64,000 bases of DNA from Camelus ferus (Eukaryota): positions 7,442,001-7,506,000 of the forward strand of contig NC_045696.1 of the NCBI RefSeq assembly GCF_009834535.1. The letters run 5' to 3'. This document shows, piece by piece, positions 5,774 through 57,405 of this stretch. A program made the position numbers and the translations under genes. The notes under the pieces were generated by a model that saw nothing but the letters and a program-made list of their open reading frames with translations, made no database searches and was not told the DNA's origin. Within the stretch, counting starts at the first letter, position 1, and each line of letters opens with the position of its first letter.

Positions 5774-7871
5774 CTATAATAAAAAGAAAACCCAAGTCAG
5801 AAGAAGAGAAAAATTATTTTCTGTACAATCACACTCAGTTTCACTTCTTTGAAAGTGGTTCCATTATAGTTTGCTTACATGTTCAGTGAAAACATTTAAA
5901 TACTTGAGAACAAACCCGTTCAAGCTATTACGCATTTTAAAACACCCTTTCACATTAATATGCTAATAATTCTTATCTACTAGTTGAATAATGGGCTGGC
6001 CAAAGGCTTCTATTATTATAGTTATTTTTATTAGACTTAGGAGATAAAAGCTACTAAATTCCTTTAAAAGTCACTGAAGTCCTTTAAAAATATAACAATA
6101 ACTTCTTCACTAATTCATAATGGCTTCACTCCAGTTAGTACAAGCTAGAAAGATTTTACAATGCTTTTCTACATACACTCCGTAATAACAAAACATCAGT
6201 TATACACAAAATTTCCCAAATGTCTTTAAAGCAGAAAATGGGTAAACTCCTCCCCCAACACCTCCAAGAACTGTACTTTATCCCCCTAAATGTCATGGCT
6301 CCTTACCTTCTACACAAAAATCAACAGTCACTATTCTGGCTTTTATCCCTCAGAAAAAGGGGCAGCTGGAAACTCACATACTACTACTGAAAGAATGGTG
6401 AACCCCTGAACCCCTGCTGTGTACTAACACAGCTACCTAAAAGCAAGGATTGGCTCTGTTCTCTATCCCCACACGCTTCTAACGCAGTACAGGCTGTAAG
6501 TTCTCAGTCAGCAGATGAAGCAGAGCTGCCAAATTAAATCACTCTGGACATTTCTTCCAGATGAAATAGCTTTGCAGAGACCACGTTGCATGAAAAATTA
6601 GTACATTTAAATACAAGCATCAGGGACCACAGACAATACTCATACAGAACAAGGTTTAAGGGAATCACCGATGAGGAATACCACATTCGCTTCTCCATCT
6701 AAGGCTCACATCAACACGTGTGCTCGCCGAGGGAGAGGCAGCAGATCACATCTAGCATTGAAATGTTAACCCTCGCTGCTCCCACCACATTTAAACTAAT
6801 CTCTTATGTTAAATACAGCAGATTAAAGTAAGAAATAACTTAATAATTTACTTATCTGATTGTCAGTAGACACTAACGGCACTCATCACTTAGGAGTAAT
6901 TTTCTAGGACCAGAAACCCGTAGAGACCTACATTCGAAGCAGCAACACTTAGCTATCAACTATACCAAGTTTGCTGCCATCTTACTGTGTCTCTACCGAC
7001 AGAAATTCATCAATATATCCTCTCAAACTCTGGCATCCTATCAGCTCCATGTCTTTAAATAAACTCAGGCAGGTCCAGTCGCTCGCAGAGGCCCGGCAGA
7101 CCCTAAGGACTGCTGCTTAAGGGCCCGTTCTGCCGTGGCTCCCACTAGCCTTGTATCCTATAACCGAATCATTGACTGTGCTAGGCAGTTGCCATTCTGT
7201 GGTCACCAAGACAAACAAGGCCCTGGTAGGTATCCAAAGAAATCACTATTTAGTGTTGGTCAGCAGCTCTCTCTGCAGCTGCCTTCTGCAGTTCCTGCGT
7301 GGCTTTGGTCAAAGAGCCTGCATGGGGGTTCTTAGGACAATCAGGACAGAGTAACAGAGTTTTATGATCCTGTGATTCACAACACAGGTCAGCCCCAGGG
7401 TATTTCTCTCTCAATCCTTAGACTGAGAGAGATCTAAATTTGCTTTAGGTGATCCTAAGCCGTTTAGTTCCATCCACTCTTCCCTCTAAGTTTTTCATTA
7501 AGGAATCTGACCACTGGTGCACAACCCTAAAGGGCCCCGCAGCACCTGACTCCAGGGGGTGCTGTTTACCCATGGTTGTGCCCAGTGTTCACACGGTTTA
7601 CACATTTACAAGTAGTTTAGCGTAATACAGGACTGGACGTTCTTACTGATGGAACTTTCCTGTGTTTAACATCTCTTGACAAGGTACACTGCAATCCATC
7701 CATAAAGTAACCTATACATTGTCAGTTGGGGGAGTAGTATTTCTAAACACAGAAATTTATAGTCCTACATTTTTAAAAAAATCACAAATGATGACAGGAA
7801 AACGAAAAAGGATTCAGAGGCCTAGGTGACGCCTTCCTACTAAACTGTGTCTCTAGAATTCGGTGACGTAC

Positions 7872-8198
7872 CAAAGCCGTCGAGTTTCTGGATCCAGGTG
7901 GCCAGCTTCGGCTCCACTTCTTTAAGCTCACTCAAAACATGCAGAAATACCCTTGTCTTTACTCTGTTCTTCTCTCGAATCAAGTGACGAATGACATAGT
8001 CTACTGCTTCATTCAGAAAATTTCTGCTAGAAAAACAGGTTGTGTAGTCTTCTGTGGTTAAAACCTTCCAAGAAAGCAACTCTTTGAGGAGCTTGGAAGT
8101 ATTCAGAACGCCGGATTTAATCTTGTCAGCATACTGCTTTATGCACTGCAGAATTCTGTCATCAAGGAACTGGCAACTCTGAACATTGTCTACAGTTT
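7872..8198 (-). CDS. TTC3: TTC3 coding exon 26
   Basis: cttag|TVDNVQSCQFLDDRILQCIKQYADKIKSGVLNTSKLLKELLSWKVLTTEDY...WIQKLDGF(G)|GTACGT; 327 nt. Confidence 0.97.
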
Positions 8199-8802
8199 CT
8201 AAGGATAAATAACAGCTGTCAGTAAAAGACAGAAAGAAATAGGACCAATTTGCAAAAATACAAACTCAGAAAAAATTAGTGTAGCCTTACACAGCAATAT
8301 CAAAACATGACTCAGATATATTCTTTATGTTGTTTTAAATAATCCAAAAAATTTTTAATTAGGAATATAAATAAAATATTTAACACCTTTGAAAAGATAT
8401 AAGTTCACATTAAATCAAACATATCAAGTACCTTATCTCCTTCACTTGTACCACTCACGTAACAGCTAAAAAAAACTTAGTTTCTCAACAATCCTAACTA
8501 AGCCAGTCTCATCAGCTACCTAACTCTTTATAGTCATAAACATGATCAGGCATTAAGAACGCAAACTTTTTTTTCTAGAGTTGAAGGGATTATTTCTTCA
8601 GGTATAAATTCAATTCATATTTGGTAGTTATTGTTATGTTATTCATCTTATTGTTGGATCCCAAACTGCAGACCTATAAAGTCATCGATTTCAAGATGAA
8701 AAATATCTCAGAAGTTCATCTTCCCACTCAGGAATCTCCCTAAAAATGGCCATTTAGCCTTTTGACGCTAATACGATAAAGGAAATACAAATACAAATAA
8801 AA

Positions 8803-9001: not shown

Positions 9002-9274
9002 GCCTTGGGGATGACCTGCACAGCACGGTAACTATAGTTAATAATACTGTATTGCATATATGCATATGAATCTTGAAAGCTCTTATCATGAAAAAGAAAA
9101 TCCTGTATGTAAGGTGATGGATGACAACTGGACTTACCGTGGTAATCATTTTGCAATATATACAAAAGCCGAATCATGACGTTGGCCACTTGAAACTAAT
9201 GTCAATTATATCTCAATTTTAAAAAATTCAAAAAAAAAAAAAAAACCACCAACAACAACAACAAAAACAACCAC
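9002..9274 (+). mobile_element. 5'-truncated L1 3' end (L1MA-like) with A-rich tail
   Basis: gtaactatagttaataatactgtattg...gtcaattatatctcaatt + A-rich tail; TSD ctgaaagta at 8993-9001 and 9275-9283. Confidence 0.85.
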
Positions 9275-12295: not shown

Positions 12296-13075
12296 GGTTA
12301 TTTCAACCCAAGGAAAAAGTTAAGACCACTAAGAGTGTGTGTAGAGCTAGAGGACCTCAATTAAGGTAAGACAAAAACATAGCAGAAGTGACTCAGTTGC
12401 AACAGTTATTTGGTCATATCATTATATTTTTAGTTAACTATGTGAAAATATGTAAAATACTAGAATTTATTTCTACTAAACTTGAATAATTCCTATTGCT
12501 AACATACACCTAACACAACCACCTCATTTTTTCCTCAAGGATAGGGGTTTACATGAGGTTAAACAGTGTAGGAAAAGATTTTCTTTTTTTAAAATACATT
12601 GGTTATATGGATCAGAAATAAATTCTATGAATGCAAGTAAGATGACAAAATTGTGCCTTCTCTCAAAGTATACCTGGCTAATGAGAATTAACGTCATTAT
12701 CTTGCTAAGAGAGACCCCAATGAGAAGCAGTGGTACAAAATTTAAGTCGAATTCTTAGTACAAATTATCTCATCAAATTTCATTAGAAGGTAAAAAGGAT
12801 ATTTAAATTTTTACTTTTGATCATAACATTTCCAATGTAAAGGTTGATTAACAATTTATTAAAGGCCTCTCTGGTTACTGCCTTTACACTTATAAAAAAT
12901 AAAAACAAAAACTGATTTTCTACTTTATCACTAGTGTTAATTTAAAACTGTCTAATTACGTCTTATGCACCAGGAGAAAGTCATATTCACTTAAGACTTT
13001 TTCTGAAGATTCTTGTACGGAAATAAATCAACATACAATAAGCGTATTAAAAAATCCAGGCAATCTTGGCCTTAC

Positions 13076-13177: not shown

Positions 13178-13221
13178 CTGGGGAGGGTTAAGATAGTTTT
13201 TAATTCACATTTTAAAGATGT

Positions 13222-13239
13222 ACACACACACACACACAC
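13222..13239. repeat. (AC)9 microsatellite
   Basis: direct reading. Confidence 0.9.
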
Positions 13240-13972
13240 CCTCTCTCACACTCACAACACACATATTAAGATGAAGAGCAAGCTGTCTGCATTTACCTGG
13301 CGGACATAACAAGATGTCACATTTCCTCCTGGGGGAGTGTAATAGTTCTCTACCCCAGAAGGCCTAGTGCTGGAAATACAGAGCTTGGCTGACATACTCG
13401 TTTCCACAGCTTACAGTTGCATTATCCTTTACAATATCAAATATTTTATAAACTTTATTTTATCTGCTCTACTGACCAGAGACAGTGGGCAGCTTCTGTC
13501 TTCTTGAATAAACTAAGGCCCAATGTCTTATTCACTAAGTCAGTTGCCAGACTTCATCTCAGACTCAGGTCTCTAGGAGCTAATTCAGTGATCACAATGG
13601 TCTTTAGATTCTTGACCTCATATTCTACAAGAAATTAGACTTGCAACAAATCAGAGGTAACCCCCTCATTTTGTTTCCTGTGCTACTGAGGAGCAGGCAG
13701 TTATATGAAACAGGGGCTACAGAGGGGACATGGAATTAGCCAGCCCGCCTTCTCAGGCCACCACCCCTGCCCCTTGGTGTTTATTTCAACGGCTCTGGGT
13801 CCCCGCATGAGATGATGCAGATCTAAAGAAGTCCTGGAGATGGGCAGACAAGAGGACATAAAACTACTGACAAGCCAGAGAACGTGGATGCCTCCAATTT
13901 CAGAATTTGTTCTGAATCGATTTTAAGGCGCAGTTCTGCAAGTTAATGCCCTAGTATACATCCACTGTGTAC

Positions 13973-14095: not shown

Positions 14096-14693
14096 CTAAA
14101 GCAAAAATAAACAAAAATGATACTAGTACAACACTAATTCGTCAACAAAATGCTGTGATTTCAATAACCTCTTGCCATCAAAATATTTTCAGCATAGGAA
14201 TAACTAAATGACTTTTAGCCAAGAACTCCACACAACTTTTAAAGTTTTTCCTTCTAGCAGTGGCTGATAGAGAGACATGTCAAGAGGGAAAGATAGGAAG
14301 AAAAGGACTGAACAAAAGATTTCCAGAATTTCAGACTCTGAATCAAAATCTTACCCTGTGTTATAATCACCAAACCTCATTTTACAATGCATAGCTCTCA
14401 GAAATCTCCTTTGTGTATTCAGAGGGAGCCAGGTGAGGCAGAATACCCCCTTAGGACTCTGTAGCCTTCTTCCTGATGTCATTTCACCCAGTACCCTACC
14501 GCCCTCTCCCATCTTCCTCCCTGAATCCTTGTCGCCTGTGCTTTCAGGTTCCCTGGAGAGCTATCCCACTGCCACCGAAGACCTCGAGAGACTCGTGCCA
14601 TGAGTCCCGTACTGGCTTTTTATTATCCATGGTTCCTATGCCTCCATCCTAATCCAGGATAAAGGGAGGAAAATTCAAGAATCCCTTTGCTTT

Positions 14694-15585
14694 GTTTTCT
14701 GTAACAGCTTTGTTGAGATATAATTCACGTACCATACAATTCACAGATTTAAAGGTATAGTTCAGTGATTTTTAGTATATTCACGGGGCTGTACAACCAT
14801 CACTATCACCTAAATTGAGAACATTTTCACCACTCAACAAGAAACCCTATACCCATGAGCAATCCCTCCCCATCTTTCGTTCATCACCTAACCTCAGACA
14901 ACCACTAATCTACTTTCCATCTTTACATACAGATTTCCCTATTCTGGAGATTTAAGATAAACAATCATTCAATATGTAGTCTTTTGTGTCTGGCTTTCAT
15001 TTAGCATAATGTTTTCAATGTTCATCTATGTATAGCATGTGTCAGTACTTCAGTACTTCATTCCTTTTTATTGCCAAATAAGATCCAATTACATGGATAT
15101 ACCACATCTTATTCAACCATTCATCGGTTGATGGACACTTTGAGCTACTTCCACTTTTGGCCCATTATGAATAATGCTGCTATGAACACTTACGTACAAG
15201 TTTTTGTGAGAACATATGTTTTCCTGTATCTGCGTATCTAGGTATGAAACTGCTGGGTCATAAGGTAACTCTATCTTTAACCTATGAGGAACTGCCAGAT
15301 TGATTTCCAAAGCAGCTGCACCATTTTATATGCCACCAGCAATGTATGGGTATTCTGCTTTCTCCATATCCTTGCCGACACTTGTTATTGTCTGCCTTCT
15401 TGATTGCAACCATCCTAGTGGGCATGAAGTAGTATCATTTTTTAATTCGCACTTCTCTGTTGGCTAATTGTGAACACATTTTACATGCTTATTGGGTATT
15501 TATACAACATCTTGGTGAAATGCCTATTCAGATCTTTCAGCTATTTTTAATTAGAGTGTCTTTCTATCACTGAGTTGTAAGAGTT
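14694..15585 (-). mobile_element. L1MB-like 3' segment
   Basis: aacagctttgttgagatataattcacgtaccatacaattcac...ccacttttggcccattatgaataatgctgctatgaaca...; the minus-strand ORF fragment KIELPYDPAV is similar to the L1 ORF2 C-terminus. Confidence 0.85.
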
Positions 15586-16794: not shown

Positions 16795-16861
16795 TACCTG
16801 AAAACACTATAAATCAATTATACTTCAATTAAAATAATTAATTAGTTAATTAATTTTTAAA
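16795..16861 (+). mobile_element. Very short L1 3' tail insertion
   Basis: acctgaaaacactataaatcaattatacttcaattaaaa; TSD atccctctg at 16786-16794 and 16862-16870. Confidence 0.75.
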
Positions 16862-18181
16862 ATCCCTCTGCTAAATTTTTAAAGAGATTATGTATTCTGG
16901 ACATGATTCTTCCACCATAAGGCAATGAATTATTTTAACTGAACAAATGTGTATGTAAACTGTTTAACTATAAACATGAAATGTTTCTATACTGATTTAT
17001 GGTTTTAAAAAATAATGTCAACAGAGTCCCACAGTCCATTCAACAAAAGAAAAATAGAATACTAGAATACTAGATTATAAAGTTATTCCAGTCTTTATTC
17101 TTCTCTTCAGACTAGAGAAGAAACAGAATTCCCTGCTTTCTCCAATCTTGAAAAGATTTCCCAATTTAAGAACTCATTTTTGCCTTTGGGTACAGAAAAC
17201 CTCACCTGCAGAAAAGCTAGACCATCATTCACCTTAAGACTGTTAAAAACAGCAGGACATTAAGCCAGATACGGCACATTACAACAGCAAACACTAGCTT
17301 ATGAGACCTTGAAGCCCAAACTGTATTATTTTGAAATTAAATTTTAAGTGCCCTTCAAAATGACAAACATTTCTTTGTTCACCACAACCTCGATGATGCT
17401 ACATATTTGTTATTTTCCCAGATATTGTGAATACCTGCATGTGATCACTGCATTAAACAGTAGGTCCTAAACAGCTCACACTAAACACTGAAATTAATTT
17501 AATTTGTTATTATTATAGAGGTGATTGCTAAATTCTCACTTTCCCTGCCTCTATTTGATTCTTAATAGAGTTGAGCTGGTCAAACAGCAGCTTTAGGAAG
17601 TAAAAGAACTTTCTTTGATCTTTAAAGATTGTTCTAGGCACCCTCTAAGACTGGGTTCCCAGAGCACCAATGGTCTGACAAAAATCTCCTCTAAACAGTT
17701 ACGTAAAAATCTAAGGATAATTAAGAATTATGAATGATATTTCATCAGTCAACAGTTATTTCTTTATGGAAGTAATCTAACATACCTACCACTATAGTGA
17801 GTGTAAATGGCAGGAAGAGAAAGGGTTTTGTTTTATTTTTTAAAGCTTGAGGCATAATCCTGTCCTCTAATGGTCATACAGCAATTTGGGGGGATAAGAC
17901 ATGAAACAATTAGAGAATAGCTACATATCAAATTCTGAGTAAGGATTTCAACTATAGGTTCAAAAGAGATTTTTATTCCTAACTCATGATCTCTTTGAAC
18001 ATATATATACTTATTATTAAAACCATCTACTTTTTTTAGGAAATAGGTATTTAACTAAAAAATTAAATAATCAGACTTATAAAGTACTAATCTGTATCAA
18101 TTCAGTTACCATTTATAAATGACATATACTAAAAGATACTGGCCATACTTTACATACAAAGGATTGATTGGCCATACTTTA

Positions 18182-18220: not shown

Positions 18221-18390
18221 AACTGGCCGTACTTTAATAATTAATACTGAAATGCCAGTCCTCAAAGTAAACACAACTGTCATAGTGTGCCACAGAGAAG
18301 ATACCAGATAACTCCAGAAAAGGGATCATCATCACACTACACTTCAAGTGAGTTCCAGCCCAGAGCATAAACAGTGGGGTTTAGACTAAC

Positions 18391-18503
18391 CTGTTTTTTT
18401 TTAAATACACTTTTCCAATTCCACAGTAGGCCAAGCAATCGAGTCCCTCATTGGGGTAGTGTTCAATCATCCTCTTAAACTGGTTTTCAGCTTCAGATAA
18501 TTC
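18391..18503 (-). CDS. TTC3: TTC3 coding exon 19 (TPR-like)
   Basis: tgaag|ELSEAENQFKRMIEHYPNEGLDCLAYCGIGKVYLKKN(R)|GTTAGT; 113 nt. Confidence 0.95.
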
Positions 18504-19019
18504 CTTCAGTAGCAAAGAGAACACAGATCACTTACACAAAAAGAGAGTGCTGGAACAGGTTTTACCCGGAGGCTGTTCTTTTTGTGTAGTATTAAAAACT
18601 GTATATTCAAAAATTTCTATGGCAAAATTATACCTTCTGCATTTCATTTTCTTAGTAATTACATACATTTTGACCATAAGGATACTCAGAGACACAACCA
18701 AAATGGTCTGGCTCCAGAATGAAAAGTTGGCACTGAATGACATTTGTGTTGTAAGTTTTCCAAACTGTTCACAAGTGGTATCACAATATTTATTACGTTC
18801 TCCAACTTGCCACTTTCCCCTCAATGTGTTTCCAAAAGTCTACCACGATACATCACGTCCTTTACTTTTTATACAAATAAAAAGTAGATTCCCACACATG
18901 GTCTGGCATAACTTTTTTCTTAATGGAAACACAAACTAAATTTTCTTTTCAAAAAAACAACACAAATGAAATTATATTTAGGTATTTAAGAAAAAATTAT
19001 CAACAAAGTATACAGAAGG

Positions 19020-19232
19020 TGCCCCCTAAACTCACTGTGGTAATTATTTCATGATATATGTAAGTCAAATCATTGTACTGTACACCTTAACACATTGATT
19101 GCCAAGTCACCCAAATCTGGTGACAGCTGTGTTTCTTCAGGGGCACCCATTCCACAGTGGGCAATCAATGTGTTAAACTTATACAGCATTATATGCCAAT
19201 TACACCTCAATAAAACTGGAAGAGAAAAAAAA
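19020..19232 (+). mobile_element. 5'-truncated L1 3' end, interrupted by a TIR element
   Basis: ctaaactcactgtggtaattatttcatgatatatgtaagtcaaatcatt...tacaccttaa[insert]acttatacagcattatatgccaattacacctcaataaaactggaag + A-tail. Confidence 0.85.
19091..19172. mobile_element. 82-bp non-autonomous DNA transposon (piggyBac-type MITE)
   Basis: Perfect 13-bp TIRs CACATTGATTGCC / GGCAATCAATGTG; TTAA on both sides (19087-19090, 19173-19176). Confidence 0.85.
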
Positions 19233-19335
19233 GGTACAGAGAAGGAAATAAGCCAAAATGAGAAAGCTATTTTAACATGTCTTCTAAAATTAATGGCATA
19301 TTTTAATTGCTTATTATCTCTGTTACAAATCTTAC

Positions 19336-19416
19336 CTCAGGCTGTCCAATCCCAAGGAGAGAAATGGCAAGTCCATAGACTACTAACACGTAGTTAATCA
19401 TGGCCAGGTTCAATTG
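19336..19416 (-). CDS. TTC3: TTC3 coding exon 18
   Basis: gacag|QLNLAMINYVLVVYGLAISLLGIGQPE|GTAAGA; 81 nt. Confidence 0.96.
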
Positions 19417-20060
19417 CTGTCAATAAAAATGCTCCAGTCAAATACCTGAACATAATTCTGCACAGGCTGCATCATACCAACCTGGTAACCGCAACAGTAA
19501 AAGACGTGTAATAAAATCTCCCTAATCACTATGACTGGGATAAAGGCCAAACAGAATTAGAAATTGTGTTTAGCAAAGATATGCAATAACACTGCTATCA
19601 AGTGTTTAAAACACAGAATCACTGTCTCAGAGATCCTTGAAGGCATGGTTCATAAGATTAGGGTGACTGAGTCATATTCTTAAGAGTAACAGACTAAGTT
19701 ATCCCCTCTCATATAGCCCTGCATAAACTATTTACCTAGCTAATCCTTTCTTTCTAGATGAAAAGATGTGACTACATAAAGTGAGTCCAAATCCTTGATT
19801 TAGTACTGTAATAAGAGAAAAAGTGTTCTAATGAACACCAACTACAGGGCACGGAGAAAACCTAGCCTGGGTTGCGTACCAAGTGCAATCACACAGGCTG
19901 AACCAGAGCATTACCTGCTTCTCACAACTTGGAGTAGATTCAGCCCCTCTCGGCAAGCTCTAAGATATACTAACACAATGAAGTCAAAGCCTTGGCTCTT
20001 TTCCATATTCATCTGAAATGCAGTAGCACTAATGAACAAGTTACCAGGAGGCAGTTTTAC

Positions 20061-20195
20061 CTTTATTTTTTGAGGATCTAAACCGTTGAGCAGCTCTGTG
20101 AAGGCCTGAGCGGCACTGCGGCAGCGCTGCTCCAACAAAGCTGTGTAACCATCCTGGATCAGGCTTCTGAGCATTTTCATTATATTGGCAAAATC
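20061..20195 (-). CDS. TTC3: TTC3 coding exon 17
   Basis: tgcag|DFANIMKMLRSLIQDGYTALLEQRCRSAAQAFTELLNGLDPQKIK|GTAAAA; 135 nt. Confidence 0.96.
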
Positions 20196-21179
20196 CTGCA
20201 AAAGAGAAATTGTTTTAGTAATCTAGAGTTATCCATGTTTGGTCTAACACTTAAGATGCCAAAGTTCATCACTGGGCAGTTATATTTTATAACTCATCAT
20301 AAAATATGTAAATACCCAAAGCTATCCTTGATGCATTATAATCCTTTATCAGCGCAGCACCATTAAAGTAAAAATTAAAAGGTACTGCCTTCACCATCTT
20401 AATTCCAACACTTCTAGTGCTGCCCATGACAAGAAAGGGTAGTTCATTTCACACTATATGGTGCCTTAATGCCTTGAATGAACTGATTCCATTCTAACCT
20501 CTTTCATTCTACAAAACAGACCCATATTGCCTCCTGTTTCCAATGGAAATTACTGCCCTCAATACAGAACAAATAAATGGTCTGTACTGAAAGCTCTGTG
20601 AGAGCGGGCTGACTCGAACTGCCATACACTCAATCTCTCCCAGTCTTCAGCGTATGCAAGGGCCTAAATAAAAGTGTGGTGAACGAACAACAGCTCAAAA
20701 AAACCTGTTATTTATATTTAAATAATCTTTTGATCTTTACAGGCTGTCTTTACAATTTAAGTCCTTAATGGTTTTTAGAACCAGTAAAATCAATATAAAA
20801 TGACATAATTTTAAAATCTCCAACTGTTAGAGATTCTAAAAATGCTTTTATGCAACTAACTAGAAAGCTGTTGAAATTGATTAGAAAACTGATTAAAAAT
20901 GTGTAAAACACGCTTCATTCCATCAGTCCTTAGTAAGATATCTGTCACATATACCTAAAATAGCTACCTGAATTTTAAAATGACCCTACATATTGAAAAA
21001 AGTATTGTGTTCTATGTTGGTATACATTTTGGAGAGGTGAAGTTTAAAACCAATATTTTATCTTACAAGAAATAAAATTGTGTTTACATAAAGCACTGAA
21101 TTGTCAAAGCAGACTCATATAAATCACATTTAACAGAAAGAGACAACCTTTCACTGTAATATACATTCTACAGGTATTC

Positions 21180-21798: not shown

Positions 21799-21848
<50 letters not shown>

Positions 21849-22060
21849 ATATATATATATATATATAAATAATCAAGGATGAACACACAGACAAATCATA
21901 ATCACCCAGCGTCCATAGTTTACCACTCTTGGTGTTGTACATTCCACAGGTTTGGACAAATGCATAATGACTATATGTATCATTTAAACTATCAAGTCAG
22001 AGGAATTTCACAGCCTGAAAAATCCTCTGTGCTCTGCATATTCAACTCTTCCTCCTTAAT
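21180..22060 (-). mobile_element. L1M fragments (ORF2 remnant plus L1MC/MD-like 3' end)
   Basis: The minus-strand ORF DKLLEKYNLQKLTQEEIE is L1 ORF2-like; tttcagagcagttttaggtttacaacaaaattgag is an antisense L1MC-type terminus. Confidence 0.75.
21800..21868. repeat. (TG)~22 followed by (TA)n compound microsatellite
   Basis: direct reading. Confidence 0.95.
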
Positions 22061-24528: not shown

Positions 24529-24860
24529 TACATGATATGTGGAATCTAAAAAAAGAAAAAAGAAGACACTGATGAACTCATCTACAAAACAAAAACAGAC
24601 TCGAAGACATAGTAAACAATCATGGTTACCGGAAGGGATAAATTTGCAAATATTAACCACCATATATATAAATAGATAAAAAACAGATTTCTTCTGTACA
24701 GTACAGGGAACTATATTCAATATCTTATAATAACCTATAATGAAAAAGAATATGAAAATGAATATATGTATGTGTATATATGACTGGGACATTATGCTGT
24801 ATACCAGAAACTGACACACTGTAACTGACTATCCTTTAATTAAAAAAAAAAAGTTTTTTT
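24529..24860 (+). mobile_element. Lineage-type L1 3' end with A-tail
   Basis: atatgtggaatctaaaaaaag...gaaaatgaatatatgtatg...gctgtataccagaaactgacacactgtaactgactat + A-tail; imperfect TSD aaatg(g)tcattttt. Confidence 0.85.
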
Positions 24861-25757: not shown

Positions 25758-27167
25758 CTGCAAATATAAAAGTATTTATTCTTGAAATCTGTACATAAAA
25801 ATCTACAAGCTTGAAAGTAAAACAATAAAAGAAAATGTAAATTGGACTAAGAAAGCAAAGGAAGCAATATTATGTGAGTCAAACTATAAACAAGTAAGCC
25901 AAAAAAGAAGCTACTGATGCTTTTCAATGTGTGCTATAAAATTATTATAAACTATAATCATGATTATCATTTAGGCCTACAGTAGATACAGAAGAGATAC
26001 AGGCTGTAGCTCCTGTCCTCAGGTAGCTCATAACAAATGGGAAGAAAAGACAGTCACTTCAGTAATTAAACAATCCCCACTAAGAAAAGAAGATATCATG
26101 TTGTTACTGACGTGTTAATTCCACAGTAACTGCTCTTATACCTCCAAGAAGGGAGAAATCACTTGAGCTGGAGTGGCTGGGAAAAGCGTTAGCGGGAATG
26201 CAGCATTTGTGTTTAGTTTTAAGGACAAGTAGGATTGGCACAGAATGGGCCAAATGAAGTTCATTTTAAGAAACACTAAGTAAACCTGTGTGATTTTGCA
26301 AGTTGAGTCAGGACAGGCTGGAAAGGGGCTGCAAGGGCAGGCTGGGGTGAGTGTTTAGAGGCCCAGTGTTTCTGATCCCCCAGCTCTGTGAGCTCAGCCT
26401 TTACCTCACCCACAGGAGTAGGGAGCACTGTACACTCTTAGGCGGGGAGGACATTTGTAAAGCTGTATAGGACAGAGCACAGCAACAGGGACAGGGTGTA
26501 CTGATGGAAGCTTCAGGAGAGACAGCAGAGGCAAGTCAGAGCCTATGTATTAGGGAGGGGAATGAGAGCCTGAGCTGGTTCTGGAGGCCTCAGAAGACAA
26601 AAGCGGCTTCTAAAAAGATACAAGAGTTCTGCATGAACTAGGGCAAAATGATTTAATCTAACCCTGGGATCTCAATTTATTTGACTTGAATGTAGATGCG
26701 GAAATGTGGACAGTATTTAAATTATTTATTTAAATGTGCTATCTGATAATAACGGCCTGAGAAATATCAAATTAAAAGCTGTTTTCCAAAAAAAAAAAAA
26801 AAAAAAGTTTGGTCCTCAAAGTTTTTCCATATGCTATGAGAGTCACATCAGCTCAGGTAAGCACCTGAGTTTGCCCCCTCTGTAATTCTGCTGAAGTGCT
26901 AACTACTAGTAAGTAGTTGCATACGTAGCACTGGAGCCTAAGAGGAGGCAGAACTGCAGGAAGCAAAAGACAGAAATGGCTGCCACAAGTAAAAACACTG
27001 AAAAAAAACCCAAATGAACCAAAACACAAGTGAAAAGCAAAGAGAGCAACAGGATCACTAACCAGAAGGCCAACAATCTCACCACAGCAAGCCCAGAAGG
27101 AACACATGAAAAGCGTGAGATTAGTAACCTGTGTGCAGTAACAACCCTGAGTCATCAAGAAAATCCG

Positions 27168-27270
27168 TGTGTGTAACTGACTCACTCTGCTGTACACCTG
27201 AAACTAACACAACATCGTAGATCAACTATACTTCAATTTTTTTTTAAATGGCTAAAAAAAGGAGAGAAAA
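27168..27270 (+). mobile_element. Short L1 3' tail
   Basis: gtaactgactcactctgctgtacacctgaaactaacacaacatcgtagatcaactatacttcaatt. Confidence 0.8.

Positions 27271-30565: not shown

Positions 30566-30573
<8 letters not shown>

Positions 30574-30610
<37 letters not shown>
30574..30610. repeat. (TG)18 microsatellite
   Basis: direct reading. Confidence 0.95.
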
Positions 30611-30613
<3 letters not shown>

Positions 30614-31009
30614 CACATTAAGTATACTAAGAATTAGCCACAAACGGTGAAGGGCCTTTTCTTAAGGAAGTAATTATAATAATGGAGGAAAAAATTTAAA
30701 ACAACTTGGTTTCAAAAAGGCTTTACTTCATTCAAAACTTCAAAAAGGCATTTTTTTTACAAAAGAATAATAATTTGTTGCTGTCTGTTTCAATAAAAAT
30801 ACGAATCATTTATAATTACCTACTGGAATGTAATACTAACATAATTCTACATGAATAGAAATGAAAAACTTAAGTGAGTTGACTAAGATAACAAATTAAG
30901 TACAAATCATCTGAGAATTGATTTATGGTCCTCCATTAATCCAAGAAACCCACCTTCAAAAGTTTTAAAGGGAATTCGACTGTAACCAAAAGAATCTTAG
31001 GTGAAATAC

Positions 31010-34442: not shown

Positions 34443-34540
34443 GAGGGAATATAGCTCAGTGGTAGGGCGTGTGCTTAGCAAGCACAAGGTCCTGGGTTCA
34501 ATCCCCAGTATTTCCACTAAAAAGCAAATAAACAAAAAAG
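34443..34540 (+). mobile_element. tRNA-Ala-derived SINE (camelid vic-1-like)
   Basis: gggaatatagctcagtggtagggcgtgtgcttagcaagcacaaggtcctgggttcaatccccagta with A and B boxes, AGC anticodon-like loop, A-rich tail. Confidence 0.8.
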
Positions 34541-40044: not shown

Positions 40045-41545
40045 TCTTAAAAAGAAATTACAAAGAACAAAACAAGGAAATTTATATTACCAGATAGCGA
40101 TACCTACTAAAATTACACATTAAAAAAAAAAAAAGCTATCTGAAGATAGAAGACCTGATGAACAGAATAGGGTATATAAATCAGGAACAGATCCTTATAT
40201 GTAATCACCTCATCTATATCACAATGGTGACACTGTAGTGCACGGAGCAAACATACTCTTAAAAAGAGGGGCTGAGTCAACTGGACATTCATATCAACCT
40301 TGAACCCTACCTCATTCTAAATACAAAAGTCAACTCCAGATGGACTATAAATTTAAATATCAAAGGTAAACAGTCAAGCTTTTAGAATGTGAAAATGAAT
40401 ATATGTATGTATATGCATGACTAGGACACTGTGCTGTACACCAGAGACTGACACACTGCAACCAACTATATACTTCAATGGAAAAAAAAAGACAAAGAAA
40501 TATTTTTAAAAAATCAAGCTTTTAGAAGAAACAAGAACATTTTGTAGAACAAGCAAACACTGTAATCAGAACACATAAAATGCTTACCATAAAGGAAAAA
40601 AATTGATAAACTATACTATATTAAAATTACTACCTTCCATTTGTGAAAACAGTAAAAAAGGCAAGCCACAGAGTGTGAAAAGATATTTGTAATACATACA
40701 CTTGACCAACAACTCATATCCAGAATTAAAAAACAAAACAAAACAAACAAAAAAACCTGCCAATGAATAAGACATTCAACTCAAAAGAAAAAAATTGCAA
40801 AAGATTCAAAAAGGCACTTCACAAAGGAGACTGAGTGGTCAATAAGCATATGAAAAATGTTCAACTTAAACATTCTTAATCAACTTAAGGAAATGCAAAT
40901 TAAAATCACAGCATCGTATCACTACACACCCACCAGAATGTCTAAATGAAATGACACAAAATAATAAGTGTTAGTGAGGACATGGAATCAAAACTCTCAT
41001 ATGCTGTTGGAAGGAGTGTAAAATGGTACAACTACGTTGGAAATTATGTACTATAGCTAAATATAAGCACACCTTCCTGTCCCATCAACTCCACTCCTTG
41101 ATTATATACTTAACAGAAATGAAGACATATGTTCACAATGACACTATCTATAAAAGTCAAGTACTAGAAACTACCCAAATGCCCATCAACAATAGAATGG
41201 ATAAAATATGGTATATTCATGCAATAGATGAACACTTTACAACTACATGCAACAATATGGATCTCAAACACAATGCTGAAAACCAGACATAAAAGAGCAC
41301 ATATTACATGATTCCGTTTATATTGCACAAAAACAGGCAAAACTAACCTATGGTATTAGAAGTCAGGATAGCAGTTTTCCTGGGAGAGGAAGCCGGTAAT
41401 GACTAGAAGGATGAACAAGGGGAACTTTTGGGGTACTGGGGTTGTGATCTGGGTGCTGGTTATGTTTGTCTGGTTACTGAAAATTCAACCTATACACTTA
41501 TGAAATGTACACTTCTCAGTATCTATATTAAATTTTTTTTGAAGT
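40045..41545 (+). mobile_element. L1ME-like 3' segment
   Basis: ggaaatgcaaattaaaatcacag...gaaactacccaaatgcccatcaacaatagaatggataaa...ctaacctatggtattagaagtcaggatag. Confidence 0.8.
40388..40513 (+). mobile_element. Younger L1 3' tail nested in L1ME
   Basis: gaaaatgaatatatgtatgtatatgcatgactaggacactgtgctgtacaccagag...; perfect 14-bp TSD tcaagcttttagaa at 40374-40387 and 40514-40527. Confidence 0.85.
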
Positions 41546-52151: not shown

Positions 52152-52320
52152 GAGGGGAGGGTATTGCTCAAGTGGTAGAGTACATGCTTAGCATGTATGA
52201 GGTCCTGGGTTCAATTCCCAGTACCTTCTCTAAAAATAAATAAACCTAATTACCCACCCTCTGCCAAAATAAAATAATTAAATAATACAATAATAAATTA
52301 ATTAAATTTTAAACAAACAA
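52152..52320 (+). mobile_element. tRNA-Ala-derived SINE (camelid vic-1-like) with TSD
   Basis: ggggagggtattgctcaagtggtagagtacatgcttagcatgtatgaggtcctgggttcaattcccagtacc + AT-rich tail; perfect 17-bp TSD taaaatgtgtgaaaaca at 52135-52151 and 52321-52337. Confidence 0.88.
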
Positions 52321-53666
52321 TAAAATGTGTGAAAACAAAAACCTGGGAAACTACTTTCTAAAATGTATTTAATATAACAAATGAAGAATTTAAAATAACT
52401 ACTGCAACATTTTGGCTCTCATGAATGTTAAAATGAGATGTTATTTGAAACACTAGTCTCATAAAAATTTAATAAACTTTATTAAACTGCAATAGGTAAT
52501 AACCAAAATTTATGCTGAAAATTTACCAGACCTCATTTTTTTATTTTAAGCTGTTCTATAAAAAAGGTTTTTTTAAGTGGTAAATAATAACTTTACTGCA
52601 ACCAAACTATAGTTGTGCCTCTAGCCAAATATATTCATTTCCAAGGCAAAAGTAGTCCCTAAAACTTAAGATTGAAGAAAGCGTTTCGGAAGATCACCAA
52701 ATAAAGTAAACTAGTACTAAAGCGACAGAATAAGATTATAGAACAAAAACCTGGACTTTGAGATCAGAAAGACCTACTTCACATCTAGGTTCTACTGCTT
52801 ACTAAAGAAACGTCACCTAACCTCTCAAAGTTTTACTTAGCTCATTTCTAAAATAGGAGCTACTTTGCAGGACTACTTTCACAGCAGCTACTTTGCAGGG
52901 CTTATATAAAGAAGAGAGAACAGAGTCAGAAATGAGCCCACGTGGGTGCGCAATACATGATACTGATCCTCTGCTCCCACCATAAAACATAGCCTATAAT
53001 TAAAAACCTCCAAAACCAGGAAGAGAACCACCTTTACCCTGTGTAAGACAGCCCAGCGTCTAACAAACATCAGAAAAACCTGTCTTGATGTTTAAACTTA
53101 GTTACTAACACTTAGGTGAAGAATATAAAGTGTGCCCTCTTCTCAGTGGAAATGGGAAATTATCAGTCATCATCAACTAAAGAGCCAATACTTCCTGTTT
53201 CAAGATTCCAGTAACTACTATAAAAAAAAACACTGCTAACATTCAAATGCTTTAGAGAAAAACATTTCAGAAAGTAGGAAAACACGTAAGGCAGTTTCAT
53301 CATAAATGAGAATTAAAGATTCATCAGAGAGATGAAAATCGTAATCTTAACTCAGTTTCTTACTTCTCCTCTGAATGAAAATACATGAGTCCAAGTTGCG
53401 GACTCTTTCTTTGGGTATACGTATGACATCCATTTGGTAAGATTTTTTTAAAAGTGTAACATCACAGAAATAATTAAGACAGAAAATACAGAATAAAATT
53501 AACTACAAGGTTAAAGTTCTTTTATTCAGGCTTTTCTCTTACTCAGAGAAAAATATTTTTTTAAATCCTAAGATAAGTAAGAAATCACATAGCTACATAT
53601 TCTATTTTCCAAACTAATACCTTTATAAAACTGAGTCAGGTAACAATTTAAAGCATTTATACTTAC

Positions 53667-57187: not shown

Positions 57188-57351
57188 TAAATCTTAAAAG
57201 TTCTCACAAGAAATGTGTAACTGTGTACAGTGATGGATGTTAACTAGACTTACTGTAGTAATTTCACAATATACATGTAAATTGAATCACTGTTATACTA
57301 TACATCTGAAACTAATACAGTATCATATGTCAATTATATCTCAATTACAAA
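57188..57351 (+). mobile_element. 5'-truncated L1 3' end (L1MA-like)
   Basis: gtgatggatgttaactagacttactgtagtaatttcacaatatac...atgtcaattatatctcaatt; TSD aaaacctttaag at 57176-57187 and 57352-57363. Confidence 0.85.
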
Positions 57352-57405
57352 AAAACCTTTAAGAAAACACAATGTTAAAAACAAAAAGTTAACAAATCTA
57401 CTTAC

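What the first reader, a model, noticed from the sequence alone, without database searches (positions are those of the whole stretch)
19087..19176. piggyBac-type MITE (82 bp, perfect TIRs, TTAA duplication) inserted into an L1 tail
Seen: TTAA-CACATTGATTGCC...GGCAATCAATGTG-TTAA, i.e. 13/13 perfect terminal inverted repeats, plus an internal subterminal hairpin gtcacc-N7-ggtgac. Removing the 82 bp and one TTAA restores tacaccttaaacttatacagc, a contiguous L1 3'-UTR motif, so this is a clean cut-and-paste insertion younger than the L1. Established: TTAA duplication and 5'-CC/CA-starting TIRs define the piggyBac superfamily. The mammalian piggyBac MITEs I know are from primates (MER75/MER85), mouse lemur and vespertilionid bats. 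Inference: this is a footprint of piggyBac activity in a laurasiatherian, probably cetartiodactyl or camelid, lineage, possibly an uncatalogued family that implies a cognate transposase elsewhere in the genome.
Basis: partly seen in the sequence, partly recalled or inferred. Interest (0 to 1): 0.72.

Follow-up and report, generated by a model that had tools for sequence, protein, structure and literature searches.

The report
Tiny piggyBac-type insertion in camel intron
An 82-base piece of foreign DNA with the ends and target duplication typical of piggyBac jumping genes sits inside an old retrotransposon in a camel gene's intron, which hints that piggyBac once invaded the camel lineage, but only this one copy has been seen.

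Summary
19091-19172 is an 82-bp insert with perfect 13-bp terminal inverted repeats between two TTAA (0 such repeats in 100 shuffles). Six other L1 tails of the window align across the site with one 86-nt gap, so it is a clean insertion younger than the L1. The host is a camelid and the site a TTC3 intron. The ends fit the published piggyBac tip motif and not Kolobok. The TIR matches piggyBat's left tip at 10 of 12 positions. A 19-bp palindrome lies where T. ni piggyBac has its transposase-binding palindrome, though it is weak alone (10.8% by chance). Best reading: a dead non-autonomous piggyBac MITE. Not shown: further copies (none in the window or in microbial collections; no genome or read depth available), a cognate transposase, an empty orthologous site, absence from Dfam/Repbase. 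A TA-target 84-bp reading is formally possible. I found no paper describing a camelid-specific piggyBac family, but one automated survey counts four piggyBac MITE families per camelid genome. New member of a known kind, moderate interest.

The parts
19087..19090 (.). left TTAA target-site copy
19091..19103 (+). left 13-bp terminal inverted repeat (CACATTGATTGCC)
   Evidence: fits the six-position piggyBac tip motif of PMC5381638
19106..19124 (.). 19-bp subterminal palindrome (6-bp arms, 7-nt loop), element positions 16-34; candidate binding site for the transposase's cysteine-rich domain (inferred)
   Evidence: chance level 10.8% anywhere, 3.5% next to a TIR
19142..19149 (+). 7-of-8 direct repeat of the palindrome's first half, 36 nt downstream (element positions 52-59); significance not tested
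19160..19172 (-). right 13-bp terminal inverted repeat, perfect match to the left
19173..19176 (.). right TTAA target-site copy
19026..19232 (+). old L1 3' tail with A-rich end, interrupted by the element; 50-64% identical to six other tails in the window. The name 'L1 3' UTR' is recalled, no repeat library was searchable
18390..18503 (-). TTC3 exon downstream of the host intron (residues 552-589 of P0003, 38/38 identical)
20061..20198 (-). TTC3 exon upstream (residues 479-524 of P0003, 46/46 identical); residues 525-551 must lie between it and the element

Best explanation
A non-autonomous miniature piggyBac element (MITE), now inert. Shown: 82 foreign bases with 13-bp perfect TIRs were inserted at a TTAA of an old L1 tail in a camelid TTC3 intron, and the TTAA was duplicated. 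From established piggyBac chemistry: a transposase made elsewhere binds the two ends, excises the element and joins it into a TTAA, which repair duplicates. Inferred: the transposase core bound the TIRs and its cysteine-rich domains bound the 19-bp palindrome. Inferred, more weakly: the element arose from a full-length piggyBac by deletion between the matching palindromes of its left and right ends, leaving one palindrome that sits 2 bp inside the left TIR and 35 bp inside the right TIR (T. ni: 3 and 31 bp; its minimal ends sharing one palindrome would be 79 bp). Inferred: the family entered the camelid line by horizontal transfer and died out tens of millions of years ago; this copy is neutral intronic DNA.
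For: Perfect TIRs plus TTAA on both sides, 0 in 100 shuffles. One clean 86-nt gap against 6 of 6 L1 tails. The insert has no source in the window (best BLAST E 0.19) and is 50% G+C against 27-29% in the flanks. TIR length 13 and first six bases fit the published piggyBac range (14 +/- 2 bp, motif C[CAT][CAT][TGA][TAG][TGA]; PMC5381638 passages). 10 of the first 12 bases equal piggyBat's left tip (PMC11707139 supplement; P about 2e-4 for one comparison). End layout parallels T. ni piggyBac. CAC tips are common among bee piggyBacs (PMC10140906 passages). 0 changes in 34 TIR and TSD positions bound divergence below 8.4% (95%), about 65 My at the camelid rate of 1.3e-9, which is about the camel-pig split of 64 My in the same table.
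Against: Only one copy seen: none in the 64-kb window, 0 full-element matches in metagenome and prokaryote collections, 91 of 91 single-end matches are chance; these collections hold little mammalian DNA, so this is weak either way. The tip motif is permissive (7.6% of window positions). The palindrome is not significant alone and is unrelated to piggyBat's; piggyBat's right tip matches far less (6 of 12, read). No bee TIR in the Apoidea table starts with CACA (0 rows). No transposase domain among the 140 longest of 268 reading frames scanned. The age bound is biased young, since the element was noticed for being perfect.
Confidence: 0.82

Rival explanations
1. An 84-bp MITE of the Tc1/mariner type that duplicated TA, with ends beginning ACACAT, which happened to land in a TTAA.
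For: Of eight boundary placements tested, two give a matching duplication: 82 bp with TTAA and 84 bp with TA. Both give the same empty site. TcMar-Tigger elements are abundant in camel genomes (PMC6675863 passages).
Against: The 82-bp reading gives a tip that fits piggyBac. It also explains the outer T and A for free, which the TA reading leaves to chance. An ACAC tip and a 14-bp TIR are unusual for mammalian mariner MITEs (recalled, not tested).
Confidence: 0.07
2. A one-off local event (template switch or repair fill-in) that made an inverted repeat at a single place, with no transposon involved.
For: No second copy seen here. An earlier unchecked note reports a one-off palindrome elsewhere in this genome (e1-8044468).
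Against: A template switch copies neighbouring DNA, but neither arm nor the interior is found in the flanks or in other L1 tails. It would not be expected to give an exact TTAA duplication and a piggyBac-like tip together.
Confidence: 0.06
3. A TTAA-targeting element of another superfamily (Kolobok), or a CAC-tipped Transib or CACTA element.
For: Kolobok also duplicates TTAA. CAC tips recall Transib and CACTA (recalled).
Against: Kolobok termini are RR...YY, here CA...TG. With the CAC tip only a 4-bp duplication matches; no 2-, 3- or 5-bp duplication does.
Confidence: 0.02
4. A piggyBac MITE, but of an older family shared with pigs, ruminants or whales rather than a camelid-specific invasion (this changes the age, not the mechanism, and overlaps with the best explanation).
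For: The 95% upper age bound (65 My with TSDs, 84 My from TIRs alone) reaches the camel-pig split. No orthologous site was examined.
Against: Perfect ends are more likely for a younger copy (probability 0.35 at 3% divergence, 0.06 at 8%).
Confidence: 0.15

Closest known systems
piggyBac of Trichoplusia ni (end architecture; PMC5381638 and PMC11707139, passages read)
   Same: TTAA target; 13-bp TIR; 19-bp subterminal palindrome a few bases inside one TIR and about 30-35 bases inside the other.
   Different: No transposase; one palindrome instead of two; spacers 2 and 35 bp instead of 3 and 31; CAC tip. T. ni end sequences were not compared base by base.
piggyBat (piggyBac1_ML) of Myotis lucifugus (PMC11707139, passages and oligonucleotide supplement)
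   Same: Mammalian host, TTAA, CAC tip; 10 of the first 12 bases equal its left end.
   Different: piggyBat's two ends share only four tip bases, whereas this element has perfect 13-bp TIRs; it lacks piggyBat's GCGGGA motif and its palindrome is unrelated. Not the same family.
Mammalian non-autonomous piggyBacs: npiggy1-3_Mm of mouse lemur (PMC2997546 passages) and bat families (PMC10162687 Table S4, part read); MER75/MER85 of primates (recalled)
   Same: Short, gene-less, TTAA-flanked; 13-bp TIRs in npiggy1_Mm.
   Different: Host is a camelid. 82 bp against 240-348 bp in lemur and 138-672 bp for the 18 piggyBac rows seen in the bat table (the table's end was not read). npiggy1_Mm has a CCC tip.
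The four piggyBac-class MITE families counted by MiteFinderII in each of four camelid genomes (PMC8605555 Table 8, passages read)
   Same: Same host group and superfamily label; size window 50-650 bp includes 82 bp.
   Different: Their sequences are in supplements that could not be read, so identity is untested; the paper does not date them or call them camelid-specific in the passages seen.
Kolobok superfamily (PMC9587614 passages)
   Same: TTAA-specific 4-bp duplication.
   Different: Kolobok termini are RR...YY; these are CA...TG.

Membership tests
piggyBac superfamily, non-autonomous (MITE) | TTAA target-site duplication | tested here: met
   (a TA reading is formally possible from one copy)
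piggyBac superfamily, non-autonomous (MITE) | Short TIRs (about 12-19 bp) starting with C and fitting the six-base tip motif | tested here: met
   13 bp, perfect; motif; motif is permissive, 7.6% of positions
piggyBac superfamily, non-autonomous (MITE) | Insertion into an identifiable empty site | tested here: met
   paralogous L1 tails, 6 of 6 with one 86-nt gap; orthologous site not examined
piggyBac superfamily, non-autonomous (MITE) | No coding capacity, small size | tested here: met
   82 bp
piggyBac superfamily, non-autonomous (MITE) | Subterminal palindrome bound by the cysteine-rich domain (present in many, not all, families) | tested here: inconclusive
   present at 16-34, chance 3.5-10.8%; binding not testable
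piggyBac superfamily, non-autonomous (MITE) | Multiple dispersed copies with shared ends and unrelated flanks | not testable with these tools
   no genome held; no read depth obtained; none in window or microbial collections
piggyBac superfamily, non-autonomous (MITE) | Autonomous partner with the same TIRs encoding a DDD transposase | not testable with these tools
   none in 140 of 268 window frames; candidate e1-7911762 could not be compared
piggyBat (piggyBac1_ML) family | GCGGGA motif at 11-16, its own palindrome at 19-30, asymmetric ends | tested here: not met
Kolobok | RR...YY termini | tested here: not met
Transib / CACTA | 5-bp (Transib) or 2-3-bp (CACTA) duplication next to a CAC tip (lengths recalled) | tested here: not met
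   only a 4-bp duplication matches at the CAC boundary
Tc1/mariner MITE | TA duplication | tested here: inconclusive
   an 84-bp boundary gives TA on both sides; needs further copies
A family already curated in Dfam or Repbase | Sequence match to a consensus | not testable with these tools
   no repeat library available; supplements of PMC8605555 and PMC5381638 unreadable

The most novel reading that the evidence does not exclude
An undescribed, camelid-specific piggyBac invasion: a horizontally acquired piggyBac amplified in a herbivorous cetartiodactyl line after its split from pigs and ruminants, and spawned an 82-bp derivative, shorter than any mammalian piggyBac MITE seen in the tables read, in which one palindrome serves both ends. 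It would be a natural minimal piggyBac substrate, and possibly the partner of the decayed 2.4-kb camelid piggyBac noted elsewhere in this scan.
Probability: 0.33. Interest if true: 0.65.

Novelty: new member of a known kind. Interest (0 to 1): 0.43.

Why it matters
Lineage-specific piggyBac activity in mammals is documented for bats and lemurs and primates (recalled). The Zoonomia-based count lists only 2 horizontal transfers of DNA transposons among 46 cetartiodactyl species, and links such invasions to carnivory. A camelid piggyBac family would add a herbivore lineage, give insertion markers for camelid phylogeny, and show how short a piggyBac substrate can be. If the family is already in Dfam, only the end architecture remains of note. 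The copy itself is most likely neutral intronic DNA.

Tried and rejected
Whole-genome search: no genome held. Read or contig depth over the element: not obtained, so copy number and polymorphism stay open. Exact scans for the two TIRs 45-70 nt apart: 0 in metagenome contigs and 0 in prokaryote genomes. Scans for TTAA plus one TIR: 1 locus in viral contigs and 90 in metagenome contigs; none of the 91 continues like the element (at most 11 of the next 25 bases) and none has a partner end better than 3 mismatches (3 loci), so all are chance. Plasmids: no match. Rfam on 18900-19300: one sub-threshold hit, E 0.46. Pfam on 140 of 268 frames: 3 weak hits below cut-off, no transposase. Protein atlas on a TTC3 exon: only hits below 0.9, uninformative. 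Full-text search for pieces of the TIR: 335 papers, the 30 listed are unrelated by title. Supplements: no TIR match in those of PMC10162687, PMC13461360 (4 files searched, 1 not readable) or PMC10140906; those of PMC8605555 and PMC5381638 could not be read and may bear on novelty and on the nearest TIR; bioRxiv supplements are closed. One paper on Zoonomia transfers outside bats was not held. Earlier findings by sequence and by relatives: nothing. A hairpin RNA reading was set aside: the fold follows from the TIRs and no RNA data were examined.

Full report
Observation. A perfect 17-nt inverted repeat spans 19087-19103 and 19160-19176 with 56 nt between the arms. It is TTAA plus a 13-nt TIR, enclosing an 82-bp element at 19091-19172. 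It is the longest of the 28 perfect inverted repeats of 11 nt or more within 600 bp in the window, and 100 dinucleotide-preserving shuffles gave none of 17 nt. The strand folds at z = -5.85, which follows from the TIRs. Twenty indexed runs of one organism hold 0.99-1.00 of the words sampled from 18400-19900; the insertion should touch about 12 of 153 words, so these runs carry the filled allele. Fourteen of the 20 may be the source of this DNA; six rows from three studies are not so marked. Contigs show presence, not fixation.

Insertion site. With the element and one TTAA removed in silico, the site matches other repeat tails in the window at E 3e-10, 1e-7 and 3e-6. In an alignment by reference, all 6 of 6 such tails show one gap of 86 nt exactly at the element. 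They are 50-64% identical to the host tail, so the host repeat is old. That these are L1 3' tails is recalled; no repeat library could be searched. The insert has no source in the window (best E 0.19) and is 50% G+C against 27-29% in the flanks. This argues against a local inverted duplication, which would copy neighbouring DNA.

Host. An exon at 7870-8217 (minus strand) is 100% and 99% identical to two Camelus TTC3 clusters and at most 94% to the other 118 listed. Exons on either side of the element match P0003 at 46/46 (residues 479-524) and 38/38 (residues 552-589). The element lies about 590 bp from the acceptor of the latter and about 160 bp from a GTAAG donor at 19335-19331 (read). Two simple tRNA-derived SINEs are of the build that SINEBase gives for vic-1 of camels, among others (passages). 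The host is a camelid.

Superfamily. Of eight boundary placements only two give a target duplication: 82 bp with TTAA, or 84 bp with TA. The first gives a 13-bp TIR whose tip fits the motif reported for 157 piggyBac-like elements (PMC5381638, passages); the motif is permissive (7.6% of window positions). Kolobok, the other TTAA superfamily, has RR...YY termini (PMC9587614, passages) and is excluded. The first 12 bases equal piggyBat's left tip at 10 positions (PMC11707139, oligonucleotide supplement; compared by eye; P about 2e-4 for a single comparison, less striking given the many known TIRs). PiggyBat's right tip, its GCGGGA motif and its palindrome do not match, so this is a different family. 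Many bee piggyBacs have CAC tips (PMC10140906, passages), but none in that table starts CACA.

Mechanism. Shown: foreign DNA, TIRs, TTAA duplication, no coding room. Established for piggyBac: the transposase core binds the TIR region and its cysteine-rich domains bind a subterminal palindrome; T. ni carries a 19-bp palindrome 3 bp inside the left TIR and 31 bp inside the right, and its minimal ends are 35 and 63 bp. Here one 19-bp palindrome lies 2 bp inside the left TIR and 35 bp inside the right. I infer that it is the binding palindrome, and that the element may have arisen by deletion between the two palindromes of a full-length parent; T. ni's ends so fused would be 79 bp. This is a hypothesis: such a palindrome appears in 10.8% of shuffles of the interior, and next to a TIR in 3.5%. 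Mobilisation in trans by a now dead transposase follows from the lack of a gene. No transposase domain was found in the 140 longest of 268 frames of the window.

Age. No change in 34 TIR and TSD positions bounds divergence below 8.4% at 95%, about 65 My at the camelid rate of 1.3e-9 per year; from the TIRs alone, 84 My. The same table puts the camel-pig split at 64 My. A camelid-stem insertion is thus plausible but unproven, and the bound is biased because perfect copies are the ones noticed.

What is missing. Copy number was not measured: no genome is held and no read depth was obtained. The window has no second copy. Scans of viral, metagenome, prokaryote and plasmid collections gave no copy, which says little for a mammalian element. 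An earlier, unchecked note of this scan describes a decayed 2.4-kb piggyBac with a few hundred copies in another probable camelid genome (e1-7911762). It is the obvious candidate partner, but its ends could not be compared; it is a lead, not support.

What is known. Searches for piggyBac with camel, camelid, alpaca or Cetartiodactyla terms (listings seen) gave no paper describing a camelid-specific piggyBac family. PMC8605555 (passages) counts four piggyBac MITE families in each of four camelid genomes by an automated, Repbase-homology method; its libraries could not be read. PMC6675863 (passages) does not mention piggyBac. PMC10162687 (passages and parts of its supplement) lists 2 transfers among 46 cetartiodactyls without naming them in what I read, and assigns 0.9-1.0% of camelid genomes to DNA transposons under 50 My and 0.06-0.07% under 25 My, so young families are already annotated there. 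The Zoonomia TE preprint (passages) does not mention camels. PMC2997546, PMC13461360 and PMC13416829 were read as passages. The library lacks most subscription papers, and Dfam and Repbase were not searchable. I put the chance that the family is already in a database at about one half.

Verdict. A real, clean, piggyBac-type miniature insertion in a camelid intron (confidence 0.82). It is a new member of a known kind at best. Its interest lies in the host, a herbivorous cetartiodactyl with no described piggyBac invasion, and in its very small size with a single shared palindrome. Both points wait on one genome-wide search.

Noticed in passing
window 34445-34540 and 52157-52340: Two simple tRNA-derived SINEs with A-rich tails; Rfam tRNA scores 67.4 and 55.1 bits, above the gathering score. 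Probably camelid vic-1 (name from SINEBase passage and recall); the first could be mis-called as a tRNA gene.
   Followed up: partly
window 9120-9246, 14684-14800, 24760-24860, 27150-27260, 40390-40500, 57236-57376: Six further L1-type 3' tails of different ages; 24747-24832 and 40384-40469 are 86% alike and look like a younger subfamily.
   Followed up: partly
window 7870-8217, 18390-18503, 20061-20198 (minus strand): TTC3 exons, identical to the Camelus protein P0003 where compared.
   Followed up: yes
window 19142-19149: A 7-of-8 direct repeat of the first half of the element's palindrome, 36 nt downstream; may be a second, decayed transposase site.
   Followed up: no
window 16802-16843 and 16924-16965: Imperfect 42-nt AT-rich inverted repeat (71%) with 80 nt between the arms, starting in an L1-type tail; probably low-complexity chance.
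   Followed up: no
window 21800-21870, 30570-30615, 13220-13256: Long (TG)n/(CA)n microsatellites, the first followed by (TA)n.
   Followed up: no
window 12461-12474 and 12614-12627: Second-longest perfect inverted repeat of the window, 14 nt, 139 nt apart; AT-rich, not examined for a target duplication.
   Followed up: no
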